64,000 nt of DNA from an uncultured Rickettsiales bacterium (lineage in GTDB: Bacteria; Pseudomonadota; Alphaproteobacteria; Rickettsiales; UBA1997), in NCBI GenBank assembly GCA_905478165.1, contig CAJQHK010000004.1, forward strand, positions 27,557 to 91,556, written 5' to 3'. A model generated the notes under the pieces. That model was not told where the DNA came from. It made no database searches and saw only the letters and a list, made by a program, of their open reading frames with translations. The translations under genes were made by a program, and so were the position numbers. Shown here one piece after another: positions 2,361 to 52,012 of this stretch (position 1 is the stretch's first letter; each line of letters opens with the position of its first letter).

Positions 2361-2436
2361 TATTAGAATTTAGGTTCTGATGTTTTGCTTATTTCCTTAA
2401 ACGGAAATTTACAAATTTTATGACCAAATTAAATAA

Positions 2437-2479
2437 GGACAGGTGGCTGAGTGTATGAGCGCAGCAATCTTTCTAACTG
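2437..2479 (+). pseudogene. tRNA-Ser 5'-half pseudogene (diverged duplicate of acceptor, D and anticodon arms)
   Basis: GGACAGGTGGCTGAGTG is identical to the start of the intact tRNA-Ser 110 nt downstream. The copy then diverges (TATGAGCGCAGCAATCTTTCTAACTG versus GTCGAAAGCAGCAGTCTTGAAAACTG). It has no T arm and no 3' acceptor strand. Confidence 0.6.
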
Positions 2480-2636: not shown

Positions 2637-2774
2637 GTTTAACTGGTTCTAACTCAATCTCCACTCAGATTTTTAATATTTTATCTAGCCTCGCAAGTCA
2701 AGCTCTAGATTCTAATGGAACAAAGTCATATAATTTTTTCAAAAGATAAAAATACTACTAAACTAACAATAAAG

Positions 2775-10304: not shown

Positions 10305-10748
10305 TTATTTATAATATTTTATTTTTTCTCTAGCTAATTCATCAGCAATATCATTATATTTATCACCGCTATGACCCTTAACCCAAAAAAATTCTACATC
10401 ATGTTTTTGCACCAAAAAATCTAACTCTTTCCAAAGATCGGAATTCTTAACTGCCTGTTTTTTAGAATTCTTCCAGCCATTTTTTTTCCAAGAAAAAATC
10501 CATTTACTTATACCATCCTTAACATAAATACTATCAGTATAAATTTCAATTTTAACATTTTTTTTGATGATTTTTAGAGCCTCAATAACAGCCCTAAGCT
10601 CCATCTTATTGTTTGTAGTCTCTAAATCGAAGCCATTAATCCTCTTCTCCTTATCTCCATAAAGCAAAATAGCGCCCCAACCCCCACTTCCAGGATTGCC
10701 ACTACAGGCACCATCAGTATAAATTTTTATTGTATTTTCTTGACTCAT
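10305..10748 (-). CDS. rnhA: Ribonuclease HI
   Basis: Motifs are IYTDGACSGNPGSGGWGA, TTNNKMELRAVIEAL, IYTDSIYV and VKGHSGDKYNDIADELA. Confidence 0.93.
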   Translation of the reverse strand: MSQENTIKIYTDGACSGNPGSGGWGAILLYGDKEKRINGFDLETTNNKMELRAVIEALKIIKKNVKIEIYTDSIYVKDGISKWIFSWKKNGWKNSKKQAVKNSDLWKELDFLVQKHDVEFFWVKGHSGDKYNDIADELAREKIKYYK

Positions 10749-10763
10749 TTATGATTATGCTAA

Positions 10764-10923
10764 TTCCCATTTATAATTGGGATATTTCTAGACGCTCCTA
10801 CAATATATTATGTAGAAAAATATTTTAAGGTTAGAATTATCAAAAAACGACAGCCCTATATTAACAGGATGTAAGGATTTTTGGTAATTAGAAGCTTAAA
10901 AGATAAAACTAGGTCATACTATT
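10764..10923 (+). repeat. Dispersed imperfect-palindrome repeat, family A, copy A1 (overlaps the dxs stop)
   Basis: It shares CCCATTTATAAT...TATGTAGAAAAATATTTTAAGGTTAGAATTATCAAAAAACGAC...TTTTTGGTAATTAGAAGCTTAAAAGATAAAACTAGGTCATA with the copies at 13331, 17521, 42371 and 45011. The left and right arms are inverted complements of each other. Confidence 0.7.
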
Positions 10924-12873
10924 AGTGACCAAATCTACAATAGAACTTACCCCAATCCCAGATTCTTCTTGCATCTTTTCAACTGACTTCTGCTCAATAA
11001 ACTTATCTGCCATGTGAAGAGGGTAAAATTTTAACTTATTTTTAAACAAAATGTCATTTTTTAAAAGAAAATCAGCAATTGTAGAGCCAAAACCACCAAT
11101 AACTCCCTCTTCAATGGTAATTAAGACATCGTGACTTGCTGCTAAATCTAATAACAGTTCTTGATCAAAAGGTTTGGCAAAAATAGCATCAGCAATAGTG
11201 ATATTAATATTGTGTTTTTCTTGTAAAATTTTATCAGCCAGAAGAGCATTATTGATAATTGATCCGAGTGATAGGATGGCAATCCGCCCGCCCTTTTTAA
11301 TAATTTTCCCCTTTCCTATTGGTAATGTTTTAATTTTTATCAATTCACCCCCCAACTTTTCAAGGGTAAGTTCCGAATTAAGGATATTTTGTAATTGATT
11401 AGAAATATTAGTGTTTCCTCTTGGAAACCTAAATGCTGAAGGATTCTTATCAATTGATAAGGATGTTTTGATTGCTCTTGCCAAATCATCACCATCCTTT
11501 GGAGCCATAAGAATAAAGTTCGGTAAATTAATAAGATAAGCAATATCAAAAGATCCTGCATGGGTTGGGCCGTCAGCACCGACAAAACCAGCCCTATCGA
11601 TTGCAAACCTAACTGGTAAATTTTGTATAGCTACATCATGTACAATTTGATCGTAAGCTCTCTGAAGAAAGGTAGAATAGATTGCTACAAAAGGTTTAAT
11701 TTTTTCACAAGCAAGACCAGCAGCAAAAGTAACCGCATGCTGTTCAGCAATTCCAACATCAAAAAATCTATTAGACTTCCTTGGAAATTCTTTTTCGAAA
11801 ATATCAAGACCGGTACCAGTTGGCATGGCTGCAGTAATTGCCACAATATCATTATCTATTTTTGCCAATTTTGTTAAAAACCCACCAAAAACTTTACTAA
11901 AAGACGGGATATCACTAGTTGGAGAGTATTTTTCTCCCGTTTTTGAGTCAAATTTTACTACCGCATGGAGAGAGTCGACGGATGACATAATTTTATTGTA
12001 ACCCCTACCCTTTTCAGTCTTAATATGAATTAAAATTGGAGTGTCAGACTTATCATTCTTAATATTTTCTAGTATAGTCACCAAAATATCTACATTGTGA
12101 CCGTCAACAGGACCGATATAATAAAAACCCATCTCTTCAAAGATATTGCCACCCATCCACCATTCCTTAGCAGCCTTTTCAAATTTTTTAGGGAATTTAG
12201 CAATGGAGTCGGGTAATTTTTTTAAAAACTTCTTAGAAATATCGCGAATTTTTAAATAAGATTTCGATGCAGCAAGACGAGAAAGATAATTGGACATAGC
12301 TCCAACGGGAGGAGAAATAGACATATCATTGTCATTTAAAATGACAATTAAACGATTATGAGCAGATCCAGAATTATTAAGTGCCTCATAAGCCATGCCA
12401 GCACTAATTGCACCATCCCCTACTACAGCAATTATATTTCTTTTTTCTTTTTTAATGTCACGAGCTAAGGCAAAACCAAGAGCTGCAGAAATAGAAGTCG
12501 AACTGTGACCAGCTCCAAAAGGGTCAAATTTACTTTCTGATCTTTTTGTAAAACCACTAATGCCACCCTCTTGCCTAATGGTAAGCATCTCTTCTCTTCT
12601 GCCGGTTAAAATTTTATGGGGATATGATTGATGACCAACATCCCAAATAATCTTGTCATCCGGAGTGTCAAATACGTAATGAAGAGAGGTGGTCAACTCA
12701 ATAACTCCAAGACCAGCACCTAAATGACCACCAGTTTTCGATACTATTTCTATTGTTTGTTGGCGAAGCTCATCCGAAACATCCTGCAACTGAGACCTTC
12801 TTAACTTTTTAAGATCTTTTGGAAACTTAAGATCATTTAATAGTTTATAATTACCAAAATTAATTCCGGTCAT
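10909..12873 (-). CDS. dxs: 1-deoxy-D-xylulose-5-phosphate synthase
   Basis: Motifs are GGHLGAGLGVIELT, the WDVGHQSYPHKILTGR motif, the GDGAISAGMAYEALNN TPP-binding motif, and DRAGFVGADGPTHAGSFD. Confidence 0.95.
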   Translation of the reverse strand: MTGINFGNYKLLNDLKFPKDLKKLRRSQLQDVSDELRQQTIEIVSKTGGHLGAGLGVIELTTSLHYVFDTPDDKIIWDVGHQSYPHKILTGRREEMLTIRQEGGISGFTKRSESKFDPFGAGHSSTSISAALGFALARDIKKEKRNIIAVVGDGAISAGMAYEALNNSGSAHNRLIVILNDNDMSISPPVGAMSNYLSRLAASKSYLKIRDISKKFLKKLPDSIAKFPKKFEKAAKEWWMGGNIFEEMGFYYIGPVDGHNVDILVTILENIKNDKSDTPILIHIKTEKGRGYNKIMSSVDSLHAVVKFDSKTGEKYSPTSDIPSFSKVFGGFLTKLAKIDNDIVAITAAMPTGTGLDIFEKEFPRKSNRFFDVGIAEQHAVTFAAGLACEKIKPFVAIYSTFLQRAYDQIVHDVAIQNLPVRFAIDRAGFVGADGPTHAGSFDIAYLINLPNFILMAPKDGDDLARAIKTSLSIDKNPSAFRFPRGNTNISNQLQNILNSELTLEKLGGELIKIKTLPIGKGKIIKKGGRIAILSLGSIINNALLADKILQEKHNINITIADAIFAKPFDQELLLDLAASHDVLITIEEGVIGGFGSTIADFLLKNDILFKNKLKFYPLHMADKFIEQKSVEKMQEESGIGVSSIVDLVTNSMT

Positions 12874-13268
12874 AAAAAATAATCAAAAAATATTGTCACG
12901 ATGAATAAATTAATTGCTATAATTATCTTAATAAAATCACCACGATGAATAGGTCTTGGATTTTTTAAAAAAACTCTGTCAACAAAGCTTCTTTCGTGGC
13001 TTACTATCTCTTTTTTTGGTGGATAGCATTTGTAGAATAAATAAATATGCCTTATATAAAAAATAATCACTAAAAATGACAAGGCAGATTGTAAAAAGGC
13101 ATTATCAAAAAAATTTACCAATGGCAAGATGATAAAGTAAGACACCCCATAAGATAAAATTACTATGTAAGATAAAGCCTTAAAACTTAATCCAGACTTT
13201 AAAAAAAAGCCAAATAGTAAAGATGTATATTGCTTAATAAGTTGTAAATTATTTTTAAAAAAACCCAT
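12870..13268 (-). CDS. Hypothetical small membrane protein
   Basis: 132-aa ORF with 3-4 hydrophobic segments. Its stop overlaps the dxs start by 4 nt, which suggests coupling. No recognisable family. Confidence 0.4.
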   Translation of the reverse strand: MGFFKNNLQLIKQYTSLLFGFFLKSGLSFKALSYIVILSYGVSYFIILPLVNFFDNAFLQSALSFLVIIFYIRHIYLFYKCYPPKKEIVSHERSFVDRVFLKNPRPIHRGDFIKIIIAINLFIVTIFFDYFL

Positions 13269-13330
13269 ATATTAATATAATTAACTTGTCTATCAAGGGA
13301 TCATATTCTTATAACGCTTCTACCTTATAA

Positions 13331-13652
13331 GACATTATATAACAAAATATTTTAAGACTAAAATTGTCAAAAAAACGACTGCCCTATATTAATGGGTACA
13401 AAGCTTTTTTGACACTTAAAATCTTAAAAAATGAAGCCAGATTACGCTATTACTTATCCAGTATTATAACAAAATTCATTTATAATGCAACTTTAGGTCA
13501 ACTAATTTTGGTTAGAAATTTATTACTAAATTTACGCTTAATATCCGAATATATTTAGCTAAATTTTATGATAATTTTTGGCCAAAACAACAAGCATAGA
13601 TGTTACATTATAGATACACTTTGGTGTTATAGGTGGGAAATTGGCATTATAT
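13331..13652 (+). repeat. Family A repeat, copy A3 (expanded, contains a second degenerate partial copy)
   Basis: AAATATTTTAAGACTAAAATTGTCAAAAAAACGACTGCCCTATATTAATGGGTACAAAGCTTTTTTGACACTTAAAATCTTAAAAAATGAAGCCAGATTA matches A1 and A2. The terminal CTTTGGTGTTATAGGTGGGAAATTGGCATTAT matches the A2 end. Confidence 0.6.
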
Positions 13653-13660
13653 GATTATTA

Positions 13661-14257
13661 CTAACTAACCTTCTCATCACCCGGTAACTGATTTTGGATA
13701 CCGCTCCACGGACTTTCGAAATCAAAATCACGAAACTCTTGAGTTAATTTTACCTTTTCATAAATAACAGCCTTCTTTTCTTCATCATACCTAACCTCCT
13801 CATAACCACTCAAGGGGAAATCTTTCCTTAAGGGAAAATGCTCAAAATTATAATCCGTAAGGATTCTTCTTAAATCTGGATGATTTTTAAACTTAATTCC
13901 ATACATATCAAAAGCCTCTCTTTCTGCCCAATTAGCAGCCTCAAAAACCTTAGAGACACTATCAATAGATTCTCCATCAGACAGAGATACTTTAATAGTT
14001 AGCCTCGTATTATATTTAAAACTCAATAAATTATAAATTACCTCAAACCTAGGGGATCTAATTCCAAGTAAATCTGCGCCGAATAAATCAATTAACATCT
14101 TAAACTTTAGATTTTCATCATCTCGTAAGAATATTAAAAAATCAACTATAGCACCCTTCTCGATAGAAATAATATCATTATAAGAGTTGTGATCTATATT
14201 TTGGATTATATCAGACTTTTTATCTTTAATATACTTTACTTGATCAGAAATATTCAT
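13661..14257 (-). CDS. nuoC: NADH-quinone oxidoreductase subunit C (isolated from other nuo genes)
   Basis: Motifs are LIDLFGAD, RFEVIYNLLS, ANWAEREAFDMYGIKFKNHPDLRRILTDY and PLRKDFPLSGY. Confidence 0.9.
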   Translation of the reverse strand: MNISDQVKYIKDKKSDIIQNIDHNSYNDIISIEKGAIVDFLIFLRDDENLKFKMLIDLFGADLLGIRSPRFEVIYNLLSFKYNTRLTIKVSLSDGESIDSVSKVFEAANWAEREAFDMYGIKFKNHPDLRRILTDYNFEHFPLRKDFPLSGYEEVRYDEEKKAVIYEKVKLTQEFRDFDFESPWSGIQNQLPGDEKVS

Positions 14258-14410
14258 ATTAACTTTTCTTAAAACCTACAATAAAAATCTGCACAAAAAT
14301 AACTTGAACAGTTTCTGAGGATTTTTTAATTTATTTTTTACAAAACCAAACTAATAGCAATGTCCACTTTAAAAACCATGTTAAAAAACTAGGCAATCTA
14401 TCTTTATTTT

Positions 14411-14530
14411 TTTTACCATTATCTACAAAAAACCTTATAAAATGTAGGCATATTCCAGTTATTTTTTATAAATGACAGGTAAAAATATTTGATATATTAT
14501 TTATTTTAAGGTGGGTTTTGGTGTTATATC
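14411..14530 (+). repeat. Dispersed repeat family B, copy B1 (overlaps the 3' end of the 14501..14938 ORF)
   Basis: About 115 bp align with 35591-35710 and, inverted, with 17436-17525. The shared core is ATATTCC(A/G)GT(T/C)ATTTTTTATAAAT(G/A)A(C/T)AGGTAAAAA(A)TATTT..ATATATTA.TTATTTTAA(G/A)GTGG. Confidence 0.7.
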
Positions 14531-14938
14531 ACCCCTACCTTGATTTTTTTTATACCTAAACTTACTCATTTCTGTCTTATTAGAATTATCTTTCTTTCTA
14601 AATTGTCGTTTATTTTGGCTCCCACCTTCTTTATAAGATGATTTTCTGTCAAACCTTCTATTCTTCCTATATTCCTTATTACTATTACTACCATCTTGAT
14701 CATCAGTTCCACTACCCCTTCTCGAACCTCTACTTTCTCTTCTTCTTTTTCTTGCTTCAGCTCTACCTTCACTCCTTCTGTCAACCTCCGACCTTCTTTC
14801 TTTTAATATAGCTTGTTTTTTCTCTTGATACTCCTTTCTTAAATTATCCAATTGCACATCATGACTAGCATGATCGTCAGCTAAAGCAGTAAAAGATAAG
14901 AATGCAGATAGTAAAAATATAAGAAATATATTTCTCAT
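14501..14938 (-). CDS. Hypothetical secreted, highly basic low-complexity protein
   Basis: A Sec-type signal peptide (MRNIFLIFLLSAFLSFTALA/DD) is followed by Arg/Lys/Ser/Glu-rich sequence (RKRRRESRGSRRGS, KNRRFDRK). No family recognised. Confidence 0.5.
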   Translation of the reverse strand: MRNIFLIFLLSAFLSFTALADDHASHDVQLDNLRKEYQEKKQAILKERRSEVDRRSEGRAEARKRRRESRGSRRGSGTDDQDGSNSNKEYRKNRRFDRKSSYKEGGSQNKRQFRKKDNSNKTEMSKFRYKKNQGRGDITPKPTLK

Positions 14939-17435: not shown

Positions 17436-17525
17436 ATAGCCGTACCAATCCCCTTAAAATAAGCAATATATCAAAATTTTTCTATCTATCATTTAAAGAA
17501 ATGACTGGAATATGAGTGCCCACTC
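17436..17525 (-). repeat. Family B repeat, copy B3 (inverted orientation)
   Basis: The reverse complement GGCACTCATATTCCAGTCATTTCTTTAAATGATAGATAGAAAAATTTTGATATATTGCTTATTTTAAGGGGATTGG aligns with B1 and B2. Confidence 0.6.
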
Positions 17526-17650
17526 TAACAGGTTGTAAGGCTTTTTGATGATTTTGGGATAAAAAGATAAAAAAACTACCTTAACTTGTGTATTTTAAGG
17601 TTGGAAATTGCTACTGGACCTTAAAATTATCATAAACGACAACTACGTCA
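17521..17650 (+). repeat. Family A repeat, copy A4 (circularly permuted: right arm precedes left arm)
   Basis: TAACAGGTTGTAAGGCTTTTTGATGATTTTGGGATAAAAAGATAAAAAAACTA (the A right half) is followed by TATTTTAAGGTTGGAAATTG...TTAAAATTATCATAAACGACAAC (the A left half). Confidence 0.5.
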
Positions 17651-28171: not shown

Positions 28172-28236
28172 TTTGCGTCAATTCCATTAAAAAATATTTT
28201 TTATTAGCTACACCAACACCCATTTGATAATTGGCA

Positions 28237-28695
28237 TTATTTATCGGAACTAGCATTATCTTCAATTGTCCTAATATTTCTTTGCAGATTGTTACGATCT
28301 ATTATAGGGTATGATTTTCTCATCTCAGTTGAGACGTCGAATTGATCGACACTAGGTATTTTAATATCAGAAAAATTAACTCTACTTACAGGGTATGATT
28401 CTGGAAAATTATACCCCAAATAGATAGGGAAATAAATTCTAGCATTTCGATCATAGCTACCATATCTAAATTGCTTTATATCAAGTGATGTTCTGGTATT
28501 ATGCTGATCAAAAAGTACCTTTTTAGCATTAGCATCATTGTCTTTAATTCTTCTTTTTACATCAGACAAGCCTCCTCCATGTTGCTCTAAAAAAGCTTGA
28601 TTAGGATTTTTTGAACCTCCTCTAGAGCAAGATATAGCAAGGAATAAGATAGTAAATAGAAATATTTTATAGAAACTAATCATAAATATAGTCAC
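28237..28695 (-). CDS. Hypothetical lipoprotein
   Basis: A lipobox-like LAISC follows a hydrophobic leader. The ORF overlaps the 3' end of the PilB/GspE gene. No family recognised. Confidence 0.45.
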   Translation of the reverse strand: MTIFMISFYKIFLFTILFLAISCSRGGSKNPNQAFLEQHGGGLSDVKRRIKDNDANAKKVLFDQHNTRTSLDIKQFRYGSYDRNARIYFPIYLGYNFPESYPVSRVNFSDIKIPSVDQFDVSTEMRKSYPIIDRNNLQRNIRTIEDNASSDK

Positions 28696-35363: not shown

Positions 35364-35590
35364 TTGGTTATCATTTTATTTTAACTACAAGATAATAGGC
35401 AGATTTAGATTTACCAATAAAATTAGCTATTTTTTGTAAAGATTACTTTTCAACAAATCTCATATGATAAATTATTTACCCATCTTTAAATGTTAAATGT
35501 TTAAAATTCCTCCTATTCGTAATCATATTAATTTTATTAAATTTTAAAAAATAATAAAAATTACATCACATTGTTCGAATAGAATCTATA

Positions 35591-35710
35591 ATTTACCATC
35601 AAAAGGTAAAAGGCTTATAACATATGGATATATTCCGGTCATTTTTTATAAATAATAGGTAAAAAATATTTTAATATATTACTTATTTTAAAGTGGATTT
35701 TGACATGATG
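35591..35710 (+). repeat. Family B repeat, copy B2 (overlaps the uvrC 3' end)
   Basis: It aligns over about 115 bp with B1 (14411-14530), including the segment that encodes the last codons and stop of uvrC. Confidence 0.7.
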
Positions 35711-37611
35711 TTAAAATCAAAAATTTGCTTAGCAACCTTGTTGCCTAAATTTTTTACCCTCTTTAAATCCTCTAATGAAGCCTCCTTAATGGAATTAAGG
35801 TCTCCAAAGTGATTTAGTAATAATTTTTTACGAGCAGCGCCAACATTTGGAATTTCATCAAGCTCAGACTTAAACATGGATTTTTTTCTTTTAGCAACAT
35901 GAGTACCAATTGCAAAGCGATGAGCCTCGTCACGAAGATTTTGCAAATAATAAGAAATAGCAGAATTTTTAGGTAAATTAAAATGATGATATTCATTATC
36001 TTGAATTATGTGATAATCTTCTAGACCAGAATTTCTACCAGACCCTTTCGACATACACAAAAAAGGAATTTTAATATTTTGTTTATCAAAAACCTCTTCT
36101 ACCGCTGATAATTGACCTTTTCCACCGTCGATAATTATTAAATTTGGTAAATTTCCCTCTTCATGACTATCAAAATCCTTAAATCTTCTGTAAAACACTT
36201 GTTTTAAAAAATTGGTATCATCTTTTTTTGATAATTCTTCTAACTTTATATTAAATTTACGATAATTACTCTTTACAAAGCCATTTTCAGAAGCAAAGAC
36301 CATAGCGCCAACGACATTTGTGCCAGAAGTATGGCTATTGTCATAAATTTCTATCCTATTTGGGATATGTTTAATTTTTAAAAGAACTTTTAGCTGCAGT
36401 AGTAAATCTGCGATCTTGGTGTCACTTGCGATTTTTTTATCAATTTCTTCCTGTAAAAAGAGTAAATTATCATTAATTAATTGTAATTTCTTACCTTTTT
36501 TAGGATACAATATCTTGACATATCTCCTTCCTCCGAGAGGATTGTGCCTTTCTTGTATTTGAGAAATGCCTACTGAACTAAACTCATTAACGTCTTTATT
36601 GCCATTAAAAGAAGTCTCTAAATTGGATAATAAATTATAGATATCCTCCCTACCCTCTAAATCTATATTGCTAATAATGTTTTTTGGAATTTCATGATTT
36701 TGATAGAACTGACCAATAAAAGCAAAAATAATATCAAAATCGGAGTCATCGAGGTTTATGTTAAAAAAATAAGTTTTATTGCCATAATTATGGCCAAAAC
36801 GATAGAAGGAAATATTAATTGCAACGATATCAGCCTTTCTCATAAATAAAATCATATCCATCTGCCCTATTTCAGCGATACTTATATTCTGCTTAGCCTG
36901 AATGATACTTAAAGACTTGATTCTATCTCGAATTTTTGCCGCCTTCTCAAATTCCAATTCTTCACTATATTTTTTCATTTTCTTAGATAATTCTTCTTGC
37001 AAGTTAGAATTCTTACCCTTTAAAAAATTAATTGCCATTTCTGTCAATTTTTGATATTCTTTTTTCGATATTAAATCGACACATGGTGCGCTACATCTCT
37101 TAATTTCATATTCAAGACAAGGTCTTTTTCGAGATCTAAATTCAGCATCTGAACAGCTCCTAAGTAAAAAAGTCTTCTTTAAGGACTCCATTGACTGACC
37201 AACGGCGTAAATATTAGCAAAAGGTCCAAAATGGTAAGATTTATTATCTTTTAAACCGCGATATTTAAAAATTTTTGGAAAATCTTCATTTTTAGAAATA
37301 GAAATATAAGGAAAAGACTTAGAGTCTTTAAGTAGAATATTATATTTTGGTTTATATTTTTTAATTAAATTACATTCTAAAAGTAAAGCCTCAATTTCGT
37401 TATTAGTTAGAATCATTTCTAGCTTTTCAGCATTTAAGGTCATCTTAGTGATTCTGGTAGTAAGATTTTTGGTATCCAGATAATTTTTAAGACGATTATA
37501 TAGATTTTTTGCCTTACCGATATAAAGAATTTGATCATTTTTGCCAAAAAATTGATAAATTCCAGGTTTTTTAGGAGCTTCTTTGATTCTTTCTCTTAAA
37601 TATTTTTGCAT
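35683..37611 (-). CDS. uvrC: Excinuclease ABC subunit C
   Basis: Features are a GIY-YIG N-terminus (PGIYQFFGKNDQILYIGKAKNLYNR), a UVR domain (ELEFEKAAKIRDRI), an RNase H-like endonuclease domain and a C-terminal HhH. Confidence 0.94.
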   Translation of the reverse strand: MQKYLRERIKEAPKKPGIYQFFGKNDQILYIGKAKNLYNRLKNYLDTKNLTTRITKMTLNAEKLEMILTNNEIEALLLECNLIKKYKPKYNILLKDSKSFPYISISKNEDFPKIFKYRGLKDNKSYHFGPFANIYAVGQSMESLKKTFLLRSCSDAEFRSRKRPCLEYEIKRCSAPCVDLISKKEYQKLTEMAINFLKGKNSNLQEELSKKMKKYSEELEFEKAAKIRDRIKSLSIIQAKQNISIAEIGQMDMILFMRKADIVAINISFYRFGHNYGNKTYFFNINLDDSDFDIIFAFIGQFYQNHEIPKNIISNIDLEGREDIYNLLSNLETSFNGNKDVNEFSSVGISQIQERHNPLGGRRYVKILYPKKGKKLQLINDNLLFLQEEIDKKIASDTKIADLLLQLKVLLKIKHIPNRIEIYDNSHTSGTNVVGAMVFASENGFVKSNYRKFNIKLEELSKKDDTNFLKQVFYRRFKDFDSHEEGNLPNLIIIDGGKGQLSAVEEVFDKQNIKIPFLCMSKGSGRNSGLEDYHIIQDNEYHHFNLPKNSAISYYLQNLRDEAHRFAIGTHVAKRKKSMFKSELDEIPNVGAARKKLLLNHFGDLNSIKEASLEDLKRVKNLGNKVAKQIFDFNIMSKSTLK

Positions 37612-42316: not shown

Positions 42317-42370
42317 TGATAAATTTTTTTAATGTTAATTTAGTATTTCTCGTGATAATTGTATTGCAGC

Positions 42371-42540
42371 ATTTCCCATTTATAATGCATTATGTAGAAA
42401 AAATATTTTCATGTTAAAATTGTCAAAAAACGACCGCCATATGTTAATGGGTATAAGTCTTTTTGGTAGTTATAAGCTTAAAAGAAGAAGCTAGATCATA
42501 ATATTGTTTACTCGGTGTTATAGATAAGAAATGGTGTTAC
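42371..42540 (+). repeat. Family A repeat, copy A2 (abuts or overlaps the stop of the 42537..43745 gene)
   Basis: ATTTCCCATTTATAATGCATTATGTAGAAAAAATATTTTCATGTTAAAATTGTCAAAAAACGACCGCCATATGTTAATGGGTATAAGTCTTTTTGGTAGTTATAAGCTTAAAAGAAGAAGCTAGATCATA...CTCGGTGTTATAGATAAGAAATGGTGTTA aligns with A1 and A3. Confidence 0.7.
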
Positions 42541-44954: not shown

Positions 44955-45010
44955 AATAGTTAAATTTAATTATAGTGTCGTTTAATATCAATTCACATAT
45001 AAGAAATAAC

Positions 45011-45106
45011 ATAATCTGGATTTATCTTTTAAGTCTGTAATTACCAAAAAGTTTTTTAGCAATTTTAACCTTAAAATATTTTGCCACATAATGCATTACG
45101 GATAGG
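45011..45106 (-). repeat. Family A repeat, copy A5 (inverted, central loop deleted)
   Basis: The reverse complement AATGCATTATGTGGCAAAATATTTTAAGGTTAAAATTGCTAAAAAACTTTTTGGTAATTACAGACTTAAAAGATAAATCCAGATTAT joins both A arms directly, without the loop. Confidence 0.65.
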
Positions 45107-45606
45107 AATTGACATAATATTCCAAAAACTACACAATGTCAATATAGTTATCAACTCAAACTTATCAAGTATTTTGTTATTAATAGTAACAAATCCAATA
45201 AAAATCTTTTCTCAACCGTTATTGCTAATTAATGATCTTACAAAAATTCTTAAAAACTGTAAAAAACTAATATCAATTCCTACCTTTAAATATACAAGTT
45301 AAAACAGCTTTTTTCTTTTAGATTTTGCTTTTAGTCACAATCATGTTTTAAGTTATTTATGAATTAAAAACAAAATCTAAAAAAACAGTAAGAGTTGACG
45401 CCACTTCTTTACAACTCATCAATGAGGGGATAACAACCTTATTTCAGCACCTTTTGCATTACAAATTACACAATCTATCTAAAATTTTGATAATTTTATT
45501 ATTGAGTCCATATTGTACCCCTTAACAATATAATCATCTATATCATCATTGATAATCTTCACTGTGATATCCTTACTATCATTGAGGAAAGAAGCAATAA
45601 TTGGCA

Positions 45607-46275
45607 TTAGATATAATCCTTATATTGATGAGTACCTCTCATCACAATATTAAAAGTACAGATTTTACGAGAATTAGGATTAAACATGTCAGACAATCTT
45701 ACTGTAGAAGTTAAAGCTTTCCTATCATCAGGATTATAAGATAAATATTGTGAATCCATTTTATTCCTTGGGTGATCCTCAAAATAGAGTTCAGTTTTTA
45801 AATATCCAAACCTTTTGTGATAAATATTCATATTGATATGCGGACTCCTACCGAAATAAAAACCAGGAACTATTGTAATAAAACGATAATTACCAAGATT
45901 GTCAGTTATGGACACTCCAGACATATTAAAATTCTTATCAATATTTTTGTCATTACTTGCCAATAAACTATGGTACTTACCTTTGGAATTTGTTTGCCAA
46001 ATCTTTATAATTGCACCCGTTATTGGTACACCAAAAGAGTCCGTGATTTTACCTTGTAAATATACTATCTCACCAAAAGCTAAATAAAATGAACCTGTTT
46101 TTTTTATCAAATTATTAGTTTGATTAAAAACCTTCGGCATAGAAAAATTATTTAAAAATAATCTCGATGGCGTTGGCTCCCTACTATTAAAAGAATTACT
46201 AAAATCATCAGCAAGTCCAATATTAGTGGCAAAAAATATAACAGTAATTAATTTTATAAGTATCCTAACTAACAT
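45607..46275 (-). CDS. Secreted intradiol ring-cleavage dioxygenase family protein (PcaH-like fold)
   Basis: A signal peptide is followed by LQGKITDSFGVPITGAIIKIWQTNSKGKYH...GNYRFITIVPGFYFGRSPHINMNIY...TELYFEDHP, which parallels the protocatechuate dioxygenase beta-subunit core. The usual H-x-H iron-ligand pair reads H-I-N here. Confidence 0.7.
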   Translation of the reverse strand: MLVRILIKLITVIFFATNIGLADDFSNSFNSREPTPSRLFLNNFSMPKVFNQTNNLIKKTGSFYLAFGEIVYLQGKITDSFGVPITGAIIKIWQTNSKGKYHSLLASNDKNIDKNFNMSGVSITDNLGNYRFITIVPGFYFGRSPHINMNIYHKRFGYLKTELYFEDHPRNKMDSQYLSYNPDDRKALTSTVRLSDMFNPNSRKICTFNIVMRGTHQYKDYI

Positions 46276-51376: not shown

Positions 51377-52012
51377 AAACAAACACTTACCCTAAAAACT
51401 GTATCAATAGCCCAAAAACCTAGTATTTCAATAACTTTACAGCTCACTTTTTAACTAATACACCTCAAAATTATGTCATTAAAGCATAAGGAGATTGTAA
51501 CATTAAACAAGTTAGTTGATCAAAACCATAATTACCACAAATCTAAAGAATTGTAGGATTTGTTAGAAATTATACCAATTCCCATCTTTAAAGGATATAA
51601 AATATTTAAACCATTACGACGTCTCTCTTTGACCCATTTCATAAAAAATTTAAGTAATAGGCGTTAGAGGGTTCATTAAAAACGAACCTTACTTCTAAAC
51701 GAGTTTGATTTATTTTGCAATAATTCCTCCTCCATTACTCAAGGGGACTATACGCATAGATCTATGGCTATTTTAGTAATTAACTGATCTGATTCTAATA
51801 CTAAATTCTGAATAATAATTTGTGTATTGTCTTTTTGGACACGGTTTTAATTTTTAATTATTAAAGTACGAATTTTAACTATCCCAAAAAGTATGTCTAC
51901 ATCAGAATAAACAACGTCAATTTTTCAGATATATCTGTAGATCATGATAATCCAACTGATAATATGATTTTGACATTATGAAACTATTGAAATGTATCTA
52001 AAATATTTGTGT

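What the first reader, a model, noticed from the sequence alone, without database searches (positions are those of the whole stretch)
35683..35710. Repeat elements supply the last codons and stop codons of several genes
The family B segment AAA(C/T)CCAC(C/T)TTAAAATAA gives uvrC its terminal ..SKSTLK* (35683-35710). It also gives the unrelated 145-aa ORF its terminal ..PKPTLK* (14501-14530). The family A terminus (AACTAGGTCATA in A1, compared with AGCTAGATCATA in A2) covers the last codons (..SMT*) and the stop of dxs (10909-10923). The TAATGCCAATT motif provides the TAA of the genes ending at 28237 and 45607. Thus at least five CDS in the window end inside repeat-derived sequence. This parallels Rickettsia palindromic elements, which are known to insert in frame into protein-coding genes. 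Here the insertions appear to target or remodel 3' termini.
Basis: partly seen in the sequence, partly recalled or inferred. Interest (0 to 1): 0.6.

Follow-up and report, generated by a model that had tools for sequence, protein, structure and literature searches.

The report
Mobile repeat ends cap gene ends
The repeats at the ends of uvrC, dxs and other genes are copies of one small non-autonomous transposon (an IS630-type MITE) whose stop-rich ends have replaced or abut the last codons of these genes; this is a real but already familiar kind of event.

Summary
The last 23 nt of uvrC (35683-35705) and of the 145-aa ORF (14501-14523), stop included, are the same repeat segment in the same reading frame. 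The last ~16 nt of dxs lie inside another copy. TAATGCCAATT overlaps the stops at 28237 and 45607.

The interpretation needs revising. "Family A", "family B" and the TAATGCCAATT motif are all one family, with at least 11 copies or remnants in 64 kb. It is a ~160-170-nt palindromic MITE. Its terminal inverted repeat is TACCAATTCCCAYYTWTAA, and it is flanked by a 3-bp duplication, TTA or TAA: 34 of 46 complete elements from other genomes carry identical flanks. Two ~1.1-kb elements with the same ends and flanks encode IS630-family transposases.

UvrC orthologues without the element end where the repeat begins.

The Fe-ADH gene (42537), the 152-aa gene (28237) and the dioxygenase-domain gene (45607) stop on the TAA triplet that abuts the repeat end.

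A wider sample gives no sign that stop codons are targeted (0 of 36 gene-facing ends). The likelier cause is a TWA target preference plus survival of harmless insertions.

These are not Rickettsia palindromic elements. MITEs that overlap gene 3' ends are already documented, for example in Coxiella. This is a new member of a known kind.

The parts
35683..35705 (-). Last 7 codons plus TAA of uvrC (..[M]SKSTLK*). This is the terminal inverted repeat of copy B2 read in frame.
   Evidence: UvrC orthologues without the element stop at ..IFN[YF]F... The 93% relative L009 has the cleaner end A|TTA|TACCAAAATCCACC.
35566..35705 (+). Copy B2. The inner and far end are decayed and the far inverted repeat is not recognisable. 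The flanking triplet at 35706-35708 is TCA (gene sense), TTA in the 93% relative.
   Evidence: nhmmer E 5e-24 with the window-derived model and 6e-5 with an independent model built from other genomes. Flanks.
14355..14523 (+). Copy B1, full length at 169 nt. Flanks are TAA on the left and TTA on the right. Positions 14501-14523 are the last 7 codons plus TAA of the 145-aa ORF (..[T]PKPTLK*).
   Evidence: Independent model positions 2-169, E 1e-10.. The ORF is an orphan with only a same-species match.
10758..10925 (-). Copy A1. It fills the whole dxs-rnhA spacer. The left inverted repeat TGCTAATTCCCAT is preceded by TTA. The other end lacks about 30-45 nt including its inverted repeat, and is fused to dxs. 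Positions 10909-10925 give dxs its ..(T)NSMT* tail.
   Evidence: Dxs orthologue tails differ after ..S[IV][IV].L[IV].
13312..13463 (-). Copy A2. TTA lies before the left inverted repeat. The far end is replaced or abutted by the next copy.
13467..13646 (-). Diverged copy X, in tandem with A2 and flanked TTA/TTA. Its end GGTGGGAAATTGGCA|TTA contains the first TAATGCCAATT site (13639-13649).
   Evidence: Independent model positions 5-158, E 1.5e-5..
17443..17613 (-). Copy B3, full length at 171 nt and intergenic between metK and the next gene. It carries the same CCCCTTAAAATAA end with no gene reading into it.
28211..28239 (.). Probable 26-nt remnant made of the two inverted repeats only (CACCAACACCCAT / TGATAATTGGCA). 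The adjoining TTA at 28237-28239 is, on the - strand, the TAA stop of the 152-aa gene.
   Evidence: Mini-elements of 41-60 nt made of inverted repeats only exist in other genomes. This is the weakest assignment.
42367..42539 (-). Copy A3, 170 nt (42367-42536). The flanking TTA at 42537-42539 is, on the - strand, the TAA stop of the Fe-ADH gene.
   Evidence: Independent model positions 2-167, E 3e-18.. The L007 orthologue has no matching copy here and ends ..LFII*, against ..LFYNMRR* in the window.
44986..45114 (+). Copy A5, 129 nt, with the central hairpin deleted and identical TAA/TAA flanks.
45271..45330 (+). Partial copy of another subfamily: TAA|TATCAATTCCTACCTTTAAATATACAAGTTAAAACAG.
   Evidence: 88% identical to the end of the L025 element..
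45599..45609 (-). Third TAATGCCAATT site. It is an inverted-repeat remnant (TGCCAATT) abutting the TAA stop of the dioxygenase-domain gene (45607-45609).
   Evidence: It shares the 13-mer TAATGCCAATTAT with the 28229 site.
51573..51634 (+). Solo element end with a perfect inverted repeat: TTA|TACCAATTCCCATCTTTAAAGG.

Best explanation
The repeats are copies of one miniature inverted-repeat transposable element (MITE). A full copy is typically 159-170 nt (157-173 nt among the complete copies recovered) and largely palindromic. Its terminal inverted repeat is TACCAATTCCCAYYTWTAA, and a central hairpin lies between an A-run and a T-run.

The element is mobilised in trans by an IS630-family transposase. 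It inserts at TWA (TTA or TAA) and duplicates those three bases. In this compact, 30%-GC Rickettsiales-like genome, the insertions that survive lie between genes, and many sit right at gene ends.

- Insertion a few bases before the native stop (uvrC, 145-aa ORF): the gene reads into the inverted repeat and ends at the first in-frame TAA, 7 codons in.
- Element abutting the stop (Fe-ADH gene, 152-aa gene, dioxygenase-domain gene): the TAA triplet next to the inverted repeat serves as the stop.
- dxs: a copy that lost its outer ~30-45 nt is fused to the gene and provides the last ~5 codons and TAG.

Shown: family unity, inverted repeats, target duplication, shared ends with IS630-type elements, and gene/element junctions.

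Inferred: trans-mobilisation (no transposase lies in the window), the order of events at each gene, and that the pattern comes from target preference plus selection rather than from a function.
For: One family:
- The B profile hits the A loci on the opposite strand, and all 7 copies align end to end.
- A model built only from 31 complete elements of other genomes finds 9 window copies, with E from 3e-18 to 3e-4.

Inverted repeats and target duplication:
- The extended alignment of 11 non-orthologous copies shows the inverted repeats.
- At 111 unique element ends from metagenomes, position -3 is T in 94, -2 is A or T in 95, and -1 is A in 90.
- Of 46 unique complete elements, 34 have identical 3-nt flanks. 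The counts are 0 for 4 nt and 1 for 2 nt.
- Window copies A5 (TAA/TAA) and X (TTA/TTA) fit this.

Autonomous partners:
- L234:108-1202 (TAA/TAA) and L186:416-1512 (TTA/TTA) carry the same ends.
- They encode DDE_3 and HTH_33 domains and match NCBIfam transpos_IS630.

Gene junctions:
- UvrC orthologues at 73-79% identity end ..IFN[YF]F(H/SN/..)*, whereas the window has ..IFDFNIMSKSTLK*.
- The 77% relative has a convergent gene 18 nt after the uvrC stop, and neither relative locus (L007, L008) contains a full-length copy.
- The Fe-ADH orthologue without the element ends 3 codons earlier.
- The same inverted-repeat sequence, TAA included, is present in the non-coding copy B3.
- In other genomes, six ORFs of at least 80 codons also end inside the inverted repeat. 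Five of them end ..TNSH[LF]*.

Precedent:
- Coxiella QMITE1/2 overlap the 3' ends of ubiB, pntAA, mutT, nagZ, recN and ruvB, and supply 33 C-terminal residues of EnhC (PMC5896051).
- Orientia has IS630-family ISs with cognate MITEs (PMC2575882).
Against: - No IS630 transposase lies in the 64-kb window, and none was shown in this genome.
- IS630/Tc1-mariner elements are described as inserting at, and duplicating, TA (PMC2229807 for RUP/IS630-Spn1). The clear 3-bp TWA duplication here does not fit that.
- Several window copies have mismatched or decayed flanks: B1 TAA/TTA, B3 CCG/CTG, A3 TTG/TTA.
- The remnants at 28211-28236 and 45599-45606 are short.
- The dxs fusion requires an extra deletion step that is not documented.
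- No clean filled-versus-empty allele pair was recovered.
Confidence: 0.85

Rival explanations
1. The copies are kept because they work as portable gene-end modules. The central hairpin, flanked by an A-run and a T-run, would act as a bidirectional intrinsic terminator or an mRNA-stabilising 3' hairpin, and the stop-rich ends would prevent read-through. On this view the association with gene ends is functional (a co-opted transposon), not just tolerated.
For: - In the distinct central sequences tested, a hairpin lies directly before TTTTTT or TTTTCTTC.
- The stem sequence differs between subfamilies (AGCTGT/ACAGCT, ATGTACAT/ATGTACAT, CCCTAT/ATAGGG). Energies range from -2 to -21 kcal/mol, with a median z of -1.7.
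- The 130-nt cores of A1 and A2 fold better than shuffles (z -2.6 to -4.0).
- At least 11 copies occupy a large share of the intergenic regions. Six of them touch a gene's stop.
Against: - The window's own hairpins are weak (-2.6 to -6.5 kcal/mol, z -0.5 to -1.6).
- Copy A5 has lost the hairpin altogether.
- The consensus terminator scan does not call the hairpin at the centre of any copy.
- RNAalifold finds no consensus structure.
- No full-length copy was found in 25 kb of the 73-77% relatives, including two orthologous sites.
- In other genomes the element also truncates transposase and kinase genes, as a selfish element would.
Confidence: 0.1
2. One reading: these are Rickettsia-palindromic-element-like repeats, with no transposase of their own, that insert in frame into coding sequence and here specifically target or remodel 3' termini.
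For: - The host is Rickettsiales-like (best named UvrC and Dxs hits).
- The elements are palindromic.
- Three genes have element-encoded tails.
- RPEs are known inside protein-coding genes: 53 of 526 in R. bellii (PMC1458961).
Against: - The element has defined inverted repeats, a 3-bp target duplication and IS630-type partners.
- No copy is internal and in frame. All are intergenic or at the extreme 3' end.
- Stop codons are not used as targets in the wider sample (0 of 36).
- Where the element lies inside genes in other genomes, it truncates them.
Confidence: 0.04
3. The shared tail ..K[SP]TLK* is a selected C-terminal peptide signal, such as a sorting or degradation tag, and the nucleotide similarity follows from that.
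For: Two unrelated proteins carry the same last four residues in the same frame, and the 93% relative keeps ..PKSTLK*.
Against: - The nucleotide similarity continues more than 100 nt beyond the stop.
- The same sequence occurs in the non-coding copy B3.
- UvrC orthologues lack the tail.
- The other reading frame of the same inverted repeat gives ..TNSH[LF]* in truncated genes elsewhere.
Confidence: 0.01

Closest known systems
IS630-family-derived bacterial MITEs: RUP of Streptococcus pneumoniae (IS630-Spn1), and mISOt2a/b of Orientia tsutsugamushi (ISOt2)
   Same: Short, non-coding, multi-copy and mostly intergenic. The inverted repeats match those of an IS630-family insertion sequence presumed to mobilise them in trans. 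RUP also has stops in all frames (PMC2229807). Orientia shows that such IS/MITE pairs exist in Rickettsiales (PMC2575882).
   Different: The flanking duplication here is 3 bp (TTA or TAA), not the TA reported for RUP/IS630-Spn1. The inverted-repeat sequence is different as far as I can tell, but it was not compared with ISfinder. The hosts are uncultured aquatic AT-rich bacteria.
Coxiella burnetii QMITE1 / QMITE2
   Same: MITEs whose ends overlap the 3' ends of functional genes by 1-50 bp (ubiB, pntAA, mutT, nagZ, kdgK, ogt, recN, ruvB). In the Dugway strain they supply the C-terminal 33 residues of EnhC, with the stop occurring immediately downstream of the insertion (PMC5896051). This is the same phenomenon the finding describes.
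   Different: Unrelated elements with different sizes and direct repeats (2-3 nt or 7-11 nt of variable sequence). No IS630 partner is reported, and the host is a gammaproteobacterium.
Rickettsia palindromic elements (RPE)
   Same: Palindromic repeats of 100-150 bp that are abundant in a Rickettsiales genome and can contribute residues to proteins (PMC1458961).
   Different: To my knowledge, RPEs sit in frame inside genes and lack defined inverted repeats, target duplications or a known transposase. Here the copies are intergenic or 3'-terminal and have all three transposon hallmarks. Sequence relatedness could not be tested.
Tourist-like MITEs / PIF-Harbinger and IS5-group elements
   Same: A 3-bp TWA (TTA/TAA) target duplication (my own knowledge of these families).
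   Different: The transposases found between the same inverted repeats here are IS630-type (DDE_3, transpos_IS630), not IS5/PIF-type.

Membership tests
MITE (non-autonomous DNA transposon) | Short (under ~300 bp) with no coding capacity of its own | tested here: met
   Complete copies are 157-173 nt, with minis of 41-60 nt. The ends carry stops within 9 codons in two frames of the consensus end, and within 7 codons in the third frame of the B-type end.
MITE (non-autonomous DNA transposon) | Terminal inverted repeats | tested here: met
   TACCAATTCCCAY... at one end and ...RTGGGAATTGGTA at the other, in window copies and in 46 complete elements elsewhere.
MITE (non-autonomous DNA transposon) | Target-site duplication flanking each copy | tested here: met
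   34 of 46 unique complete elements have identical 3-nt flanks (TTA or TAA). The counts are 0 for 4 nt and 1 for 2 nt, and shifted controls give 1 and 0. Window A5 is TAA/TAA and X is TTA/TTA.
MITE (non-autonomous DNA transposon) | Many dispersed copies, with presence/absence differences between relatives | tested here: met
   At least 11 copies or remnants in 64 kb. No full-length copy in 25 kb of the 73-77% relatives, only a ~60-nt inverted-repeat-only mini in L008. The orthologous A3 site in L007 shows no matching copy and holds a different 16-nt inverted repeat. The uvrC site is abutted by a convergent gene. Copies are conserved at orthologous sites in the 93% relative.
IS630-family-derived element | Inverted repeats shared with an autonomous IS that encodes an IS630-type DDE transposase | tested here: met
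   L234:108-1202 and L186:416-1512 have the same ends and TWA flanks. Their ORFs hit Pfam DDE_3 and HTH_33 and NCBIfam transpos_IS630. The host of these contigs is unknown, and no transposase is in the window.
IS630-family-derived element | Insertion at, and duplication of, a TA dinucleotide | tested here: not met
   The duplication is 3 bp, T-W-A. A 2-nt duplication fits 1 of 46 elements. TA as the IS630-Spn1/RUP target comes from PMC2229807.
Rickettsia palindromic elements | Sequence similarity to RPE-1 to RPE-10 models | not testable with these tools
   No RPE library is available. Rfam finds nothing in 10700-14600 at E<=1.
Rickettsia palindromic elements | In-frame insertion inside protein-coding genes without disrupting them | tested here: not met
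   All window copies are intergenic or overlap only the last 5-7 codons. In other genomes, internal insertions truncate the ORF.
REP/BIME elements | Imperfect palindromes of ~20-40 nt, often in alternating arrays, linked to a RAYT tyrosine transposase (PMC2817692) | tested here: not met
   The units are 160-170 nt with inverted repeats and a target duplication, and the partner is a DDE transposase.
Intrinsic (rho-independent) terminator | Stable G+C-containing hairpin directly followed by a U-run | tested here: inconclusive
   The hairpin plus T-run is present in nearly all the distinct central sequences tested. It is weak in the window copies, is not called at the centre of any copy by the consensus scan, and has no alifold consensus.

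The most novel reading that the evidence does not exclude
This could be a previously undescribed branch of IS630-type elements that duplicates TWA rather than TA. Its MITE derivatives would carry a conserved bidirectional terminator-like hairpin plus stop-rich ends. In streamlined aquatic Rickettsiales-like genomes they would then have been co-opted as portable gene-end cassettes (stop codon plus terminator). That would explain why whole intergenic spacers, such as dxs-rnhA, consist of the element.
Probability: 0.12. Interest if true: 0.5.

Novelty: new member of a known kind. Interest (0 to 1): 0.3.

Why it matters
For annotation, five or six gene ends in this window are chimeric or abut transposon DNA. 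C-terminal residues such as ..MSKSTLK (UvrC) and ..NSMT (Dxs) should therefore not be read as native or conserved. Two "families" and a "motif" collapse into one element.

For genome biology, it shows a MITE making up roughly a fifth of the intergenic DNA (an estimate, assuming about 88% coding density) in a compact genome of an uncultured aquatic Rickettsiales-like lineage. The same ends are also present in many marine and freshwater metagenomes.

The one unusual point is an IS630-type transposase paired with a 3-bp TWA duplication. It is worth checking against ISfinder. Otherwise the phenomenon is well precedented.

Tried and rejected
1. Treating A and B as separate families was rejected. 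The profiles cross-hit and the copies align end to end.
2. Treating TAATGCCAATT as an independent motif was rejected. The three sites share no flanking similarity. The site at 13639 is the end of a full copy, and the motif equals TAA plus the inverted-repeat start with one change.
3. My own hypothesis that the element targets TAA stop codons came from the three window genes whose stop abuts the inverted repeat. It was rejected as a general rule: 0 of 36 gene-facing ends in other genomes do this.
4. Promoter and terminator consensus scans gave promoter-like hits at chance level. No terminator was called at the hairpin in any copy's centre.
5. RNAalifold on 14 diverse copies gave no consensus structure.
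6. Rfam gave only three tRNAs at the gathering threshold and nothing in the repeats at E<=1.
7. My first genome contigs pattern was too loose. Only two relevant genomes were recovered, and the window's own species was not among them.
8. A homologue search for the 145-aa ORF gave only a same-species hit, so its native C-terminus cannot be judged.
9. The apparent similarity between the native uvrC and dxs coding sequence upstream of the junctions and the element was judged to be chance, because those residues are conserved in orthologues.
10. Comparing the A3 site with L007 was not a clean empty-site test. That spacer holds a different palindrome.

Full report
**Setting.** The window is 30% G+C and nearly all genes lie on the - strand. 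UvrC and Dxs have their best named matches in MAGs labelled Rickettsiales or Rickettsiaceae. The identical UvrC, with the same gene order around it, is found on contigs from six independent marine and lake metagenome assemblies, and the repeat after uvrC matches at the same position in all six. The repeats are therefore not assembly artefacts.

**Checking the observation.**
- The 18-mer AAAYCCACYTTAAAATAA occurs twice (0.17 expected), at the 3' ends of uvrC (35683..37611-) and of a 145-aa ORF (14501..14938-). It gives ..SKSTLK* and ..PKPTLK*.
- The two loci stay 80% identical for about 110 nt past the stop.
- dxs (10909..12873-) ends ..TNSMT* with TAG, inside a stretch shared with other copies.
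- TAATGCCAATT occurs three times exactly (0.13 expected). Two of the sites overlap the TAA stops at 28237 and 45607.

**One family, not three.** Profile searches found more copies: 44986-45114 on the other strand, and 17443-17613. The B profile also hit the A loci in reverse orientation. All seven copies align over their full length, with B in gene sense corresponding to A in antisense.

I then added non-orthologous copies from a 93-94% identical relative. These are contigs of MAG JBLHPX01, labelled "Ulvibacter sp.", a label I doubt. Extending the flanks showed that the element is longer than either "family". It ends in inverted repeats: TACCAATTCCCAY.. at one end and ..RTGGGAATTGGTA at the other.

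A model built only from 31 complete elements of other genomes recovers nine window copies. Three of them are full length: 42367-42536, 17443-17613 and 14355-14523.

TAATGCCAATT is the flanking TAA plus the inverted-repeat start (TGCCAATT against TACCAATT).
- The site at 13639 is the end of a full diverged copy, 13467-13646.
- The site at 28229 belongs to a 26-nt remnant made of inverted repeats only.
- The site at 45599 is a short remnant.

**It is a transposon.** A scan of metagenome contigs for the inverted repeat, without its flank, returned 118 loci.
- At 111 unique ends, the three preceding bases are T (94), A or T (95) and A (90).
- Of 46 unique complete elements, 34 have identical 3-nt flanks, TTA or TAA. 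The counts are 0 for 4 nt and 1 for 2 nt.
- Lengths cluster at 159 and 168-169 nt, with minis of 41-60 nt.
- Two elements of about 1.1 kb carry the same ends and the same kind of flanks: L234 (TAA/TAA) and L186 (TTA/TTA). Both encode IS630-family transposases (Pfam DDE_3 and HTH_33, NCBIfam transpos_IS630).
- The window contains no transposase.

The repeat is therefore a MITE that shares its ends with IS630-type insertion sequences. The 3-bp TWA duplication differs from the TA reported for IS630-Spn1/RUP (PMC2229807).

**What happened at each gene.**
- *uvrC.* Orthologues at 73-79% identity end ..KIFN[YF]F followed by 1-6 variable residues. The window has ..QIFDFNIMSKSTLK*, and the 93% relative has ..NIIPKSTLK* with the clean junction A|TTA|TACCAAAATCCACC. 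The gene runs 23 nt into the inverted repeat. In the 77% relative a convergent gene starts 18 nt after the uvrC stop, and no full-length copy is present in that locus.
- *145-aa ORF.* The junction and reading frame are the same. The ORF is an orphan, so its native end is unknown.
- *dxs.* The native sequence runs through ..GIGVSSIVDLV, which is conserved in orthologues. The last ~5 codons and TAG match positions ~31-46 of the element. That copy lacks its outer end, so a deletion must have fused it to the gene. Orthologue tails are variable and of similar length, which makes this the least certain case.
- *Fe-ADH gene (42537).* The TAA stop is the triplet abutting the inverted repeat of copy A3. 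The orthologue in the 77% relative, where no matching copy is found, ends 3 codons earlier (..LFII* against ..LFYNMRR*). An extra T shifts the frame in the window lineage.
- *152-aa gene (28237) and dioxygenase-domain gene (45607).* The stop is the TAA next to an inverted-repeat remnant.

**Is there targeting of gene ends?** No. Among 36 element ends from other genomes that face an ORF of at least 80 codons, none uses the stop codon as its target triplet. Thirty-one lie 4-142 nt downstream of the stop, and five ORFs end inside the element.

With slightly different criteria, six ORFs end inside the element. Five of those end ..TNSH[LF]*. The set includes truncated transposase and histidine-kinase genes, so these are disruptions rather than remodelled tails.

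The window pattern is best explained by three factors. The element prefers TWA targets. The genome is AT-rich, with short spacers and TAA stops. Only harmless insertions survive. The inverted repeat has an in-frame stop within 9 codons in two frames of the consensus end, and within 7 codons in the third frame of the B-type end. Any gene that reads into it is therefore capped quickly.

**Possible function.** The element's centre is a hairpin between an A-run and a T-run. The stem sequence differs between subfamilies while the layout is kept. Energies range from -2 to -21 kcal/mol, with a median z of -1.7.

This looks like a bidirectional intrinsic terminator, but the support is weak:
- The window copies fold poorly.
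- One copy has lost the hairpin.
- The consensus scan does not call the hairpin at the centre of any copy.
- RNAalifold finds no consensus structure.

I treat a terminator or co-option role as a minority possibility.

**Comparison with known systems.**
- The closest by mechanism are IS630-derived MITEs: RUP (PMC2229807), and the mISOt2 elements of the Rickettsiales member Orientia (PMC2575882).
- The closest by effect are the Coxiella QMITEs. They overlap many gene 3' ends and supply the EnhC tail (PMC5896051).
- Rickettsia palindromic elements share only palindromy and host order. They are known inside genes (PMC1458961). Here no copy is internal and in frame, and the transposon hallmarks are present.

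**Verdict.** The only unusual feature is the TWA duplication paired with an IS630-type transposase.

Noticed in passing
window 24851-24973: A G+C-rich island in an intergenic region. An outer stem (CCACCCCCACCAAA / TTTGGTGGGGGT) encloses four hairpins, including a perfect 24-nt inverted repeat (24877-24900 / 24926-24949). There is no Rfam family, only sub-threshold hairpin hits. It could be an undescribed structured RNA or another palindromic element.
   Followed up: partly
window 2413-2479 versus 2523-2589: The 5' part of tRNA-Ser(tga), plus 24 nt upstream of it, is duplicated 110 nt upstream at 87% identity. The copy is truncated and is not called as a tRNA. It may be the scar of an integration at the tRNA gene.
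   Followed up: no
window 2700-2738; L009:2098-2205: A second, unrelated palindromic repeat family. One arm (CTAGATTCTAATGGAACAAAGTCATATAATTTTT) lies just 3' of tRNA-Ser in the window. In the 93% relative, both arms form a near-perfect palindrome of about 105 nt downstream of uvrC.
   Followed up: no
L024, L025, L029, L045, L074 (GenBank JBLHPX01): A MAG labelled 'Ulvibacter sp.' (a flavobacterium) holds contigs 93-94% identical to this Rickettsiales-like window and of similar G+C content. The taxonomic label or the binning looks wrong.
   Followed up: partly
L074:2198-2320 versus window 10780-10786: In the 93% relative, the dxs-rnhA copy carries an extra 118-nt insertion between its left inverted repeat and its body. 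The origin of the insert is unknown.
   Followed up: no
L009:1950-2024 versus window 35600-35680: The uvrC copy in the 93% relative lacks about 50 nt of the element interior. The missing stretch is bounded by AATATAT direct repeats, which suggests slippage deletion within copies.
   Followed up: partly
L007:5231-5414: The 77% relative has a different 16-nt inverted repeat (GGAACCTCTGAAAAAC ... GTTTTTTCAGAGGTTCC) in the Fe-ADH/histidine-kinase spacer, where the window has copy A3. Different palindromic elements occupy the same spacer in related genomes.
   Followed up: no
L186:416-1512: An IS630-family element with the same AT-rich inverted repeats sits in a G+C-rich contig. This element group therefore spans hosts of very different base composition.
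   Followed up: no
metagenome loci L125-L242, position -4 relative to the inverted repeat: The base before the TWA duplication is almost never T (6 of 111). This suggests a longer target preference (VTWA).
   Followed up: no
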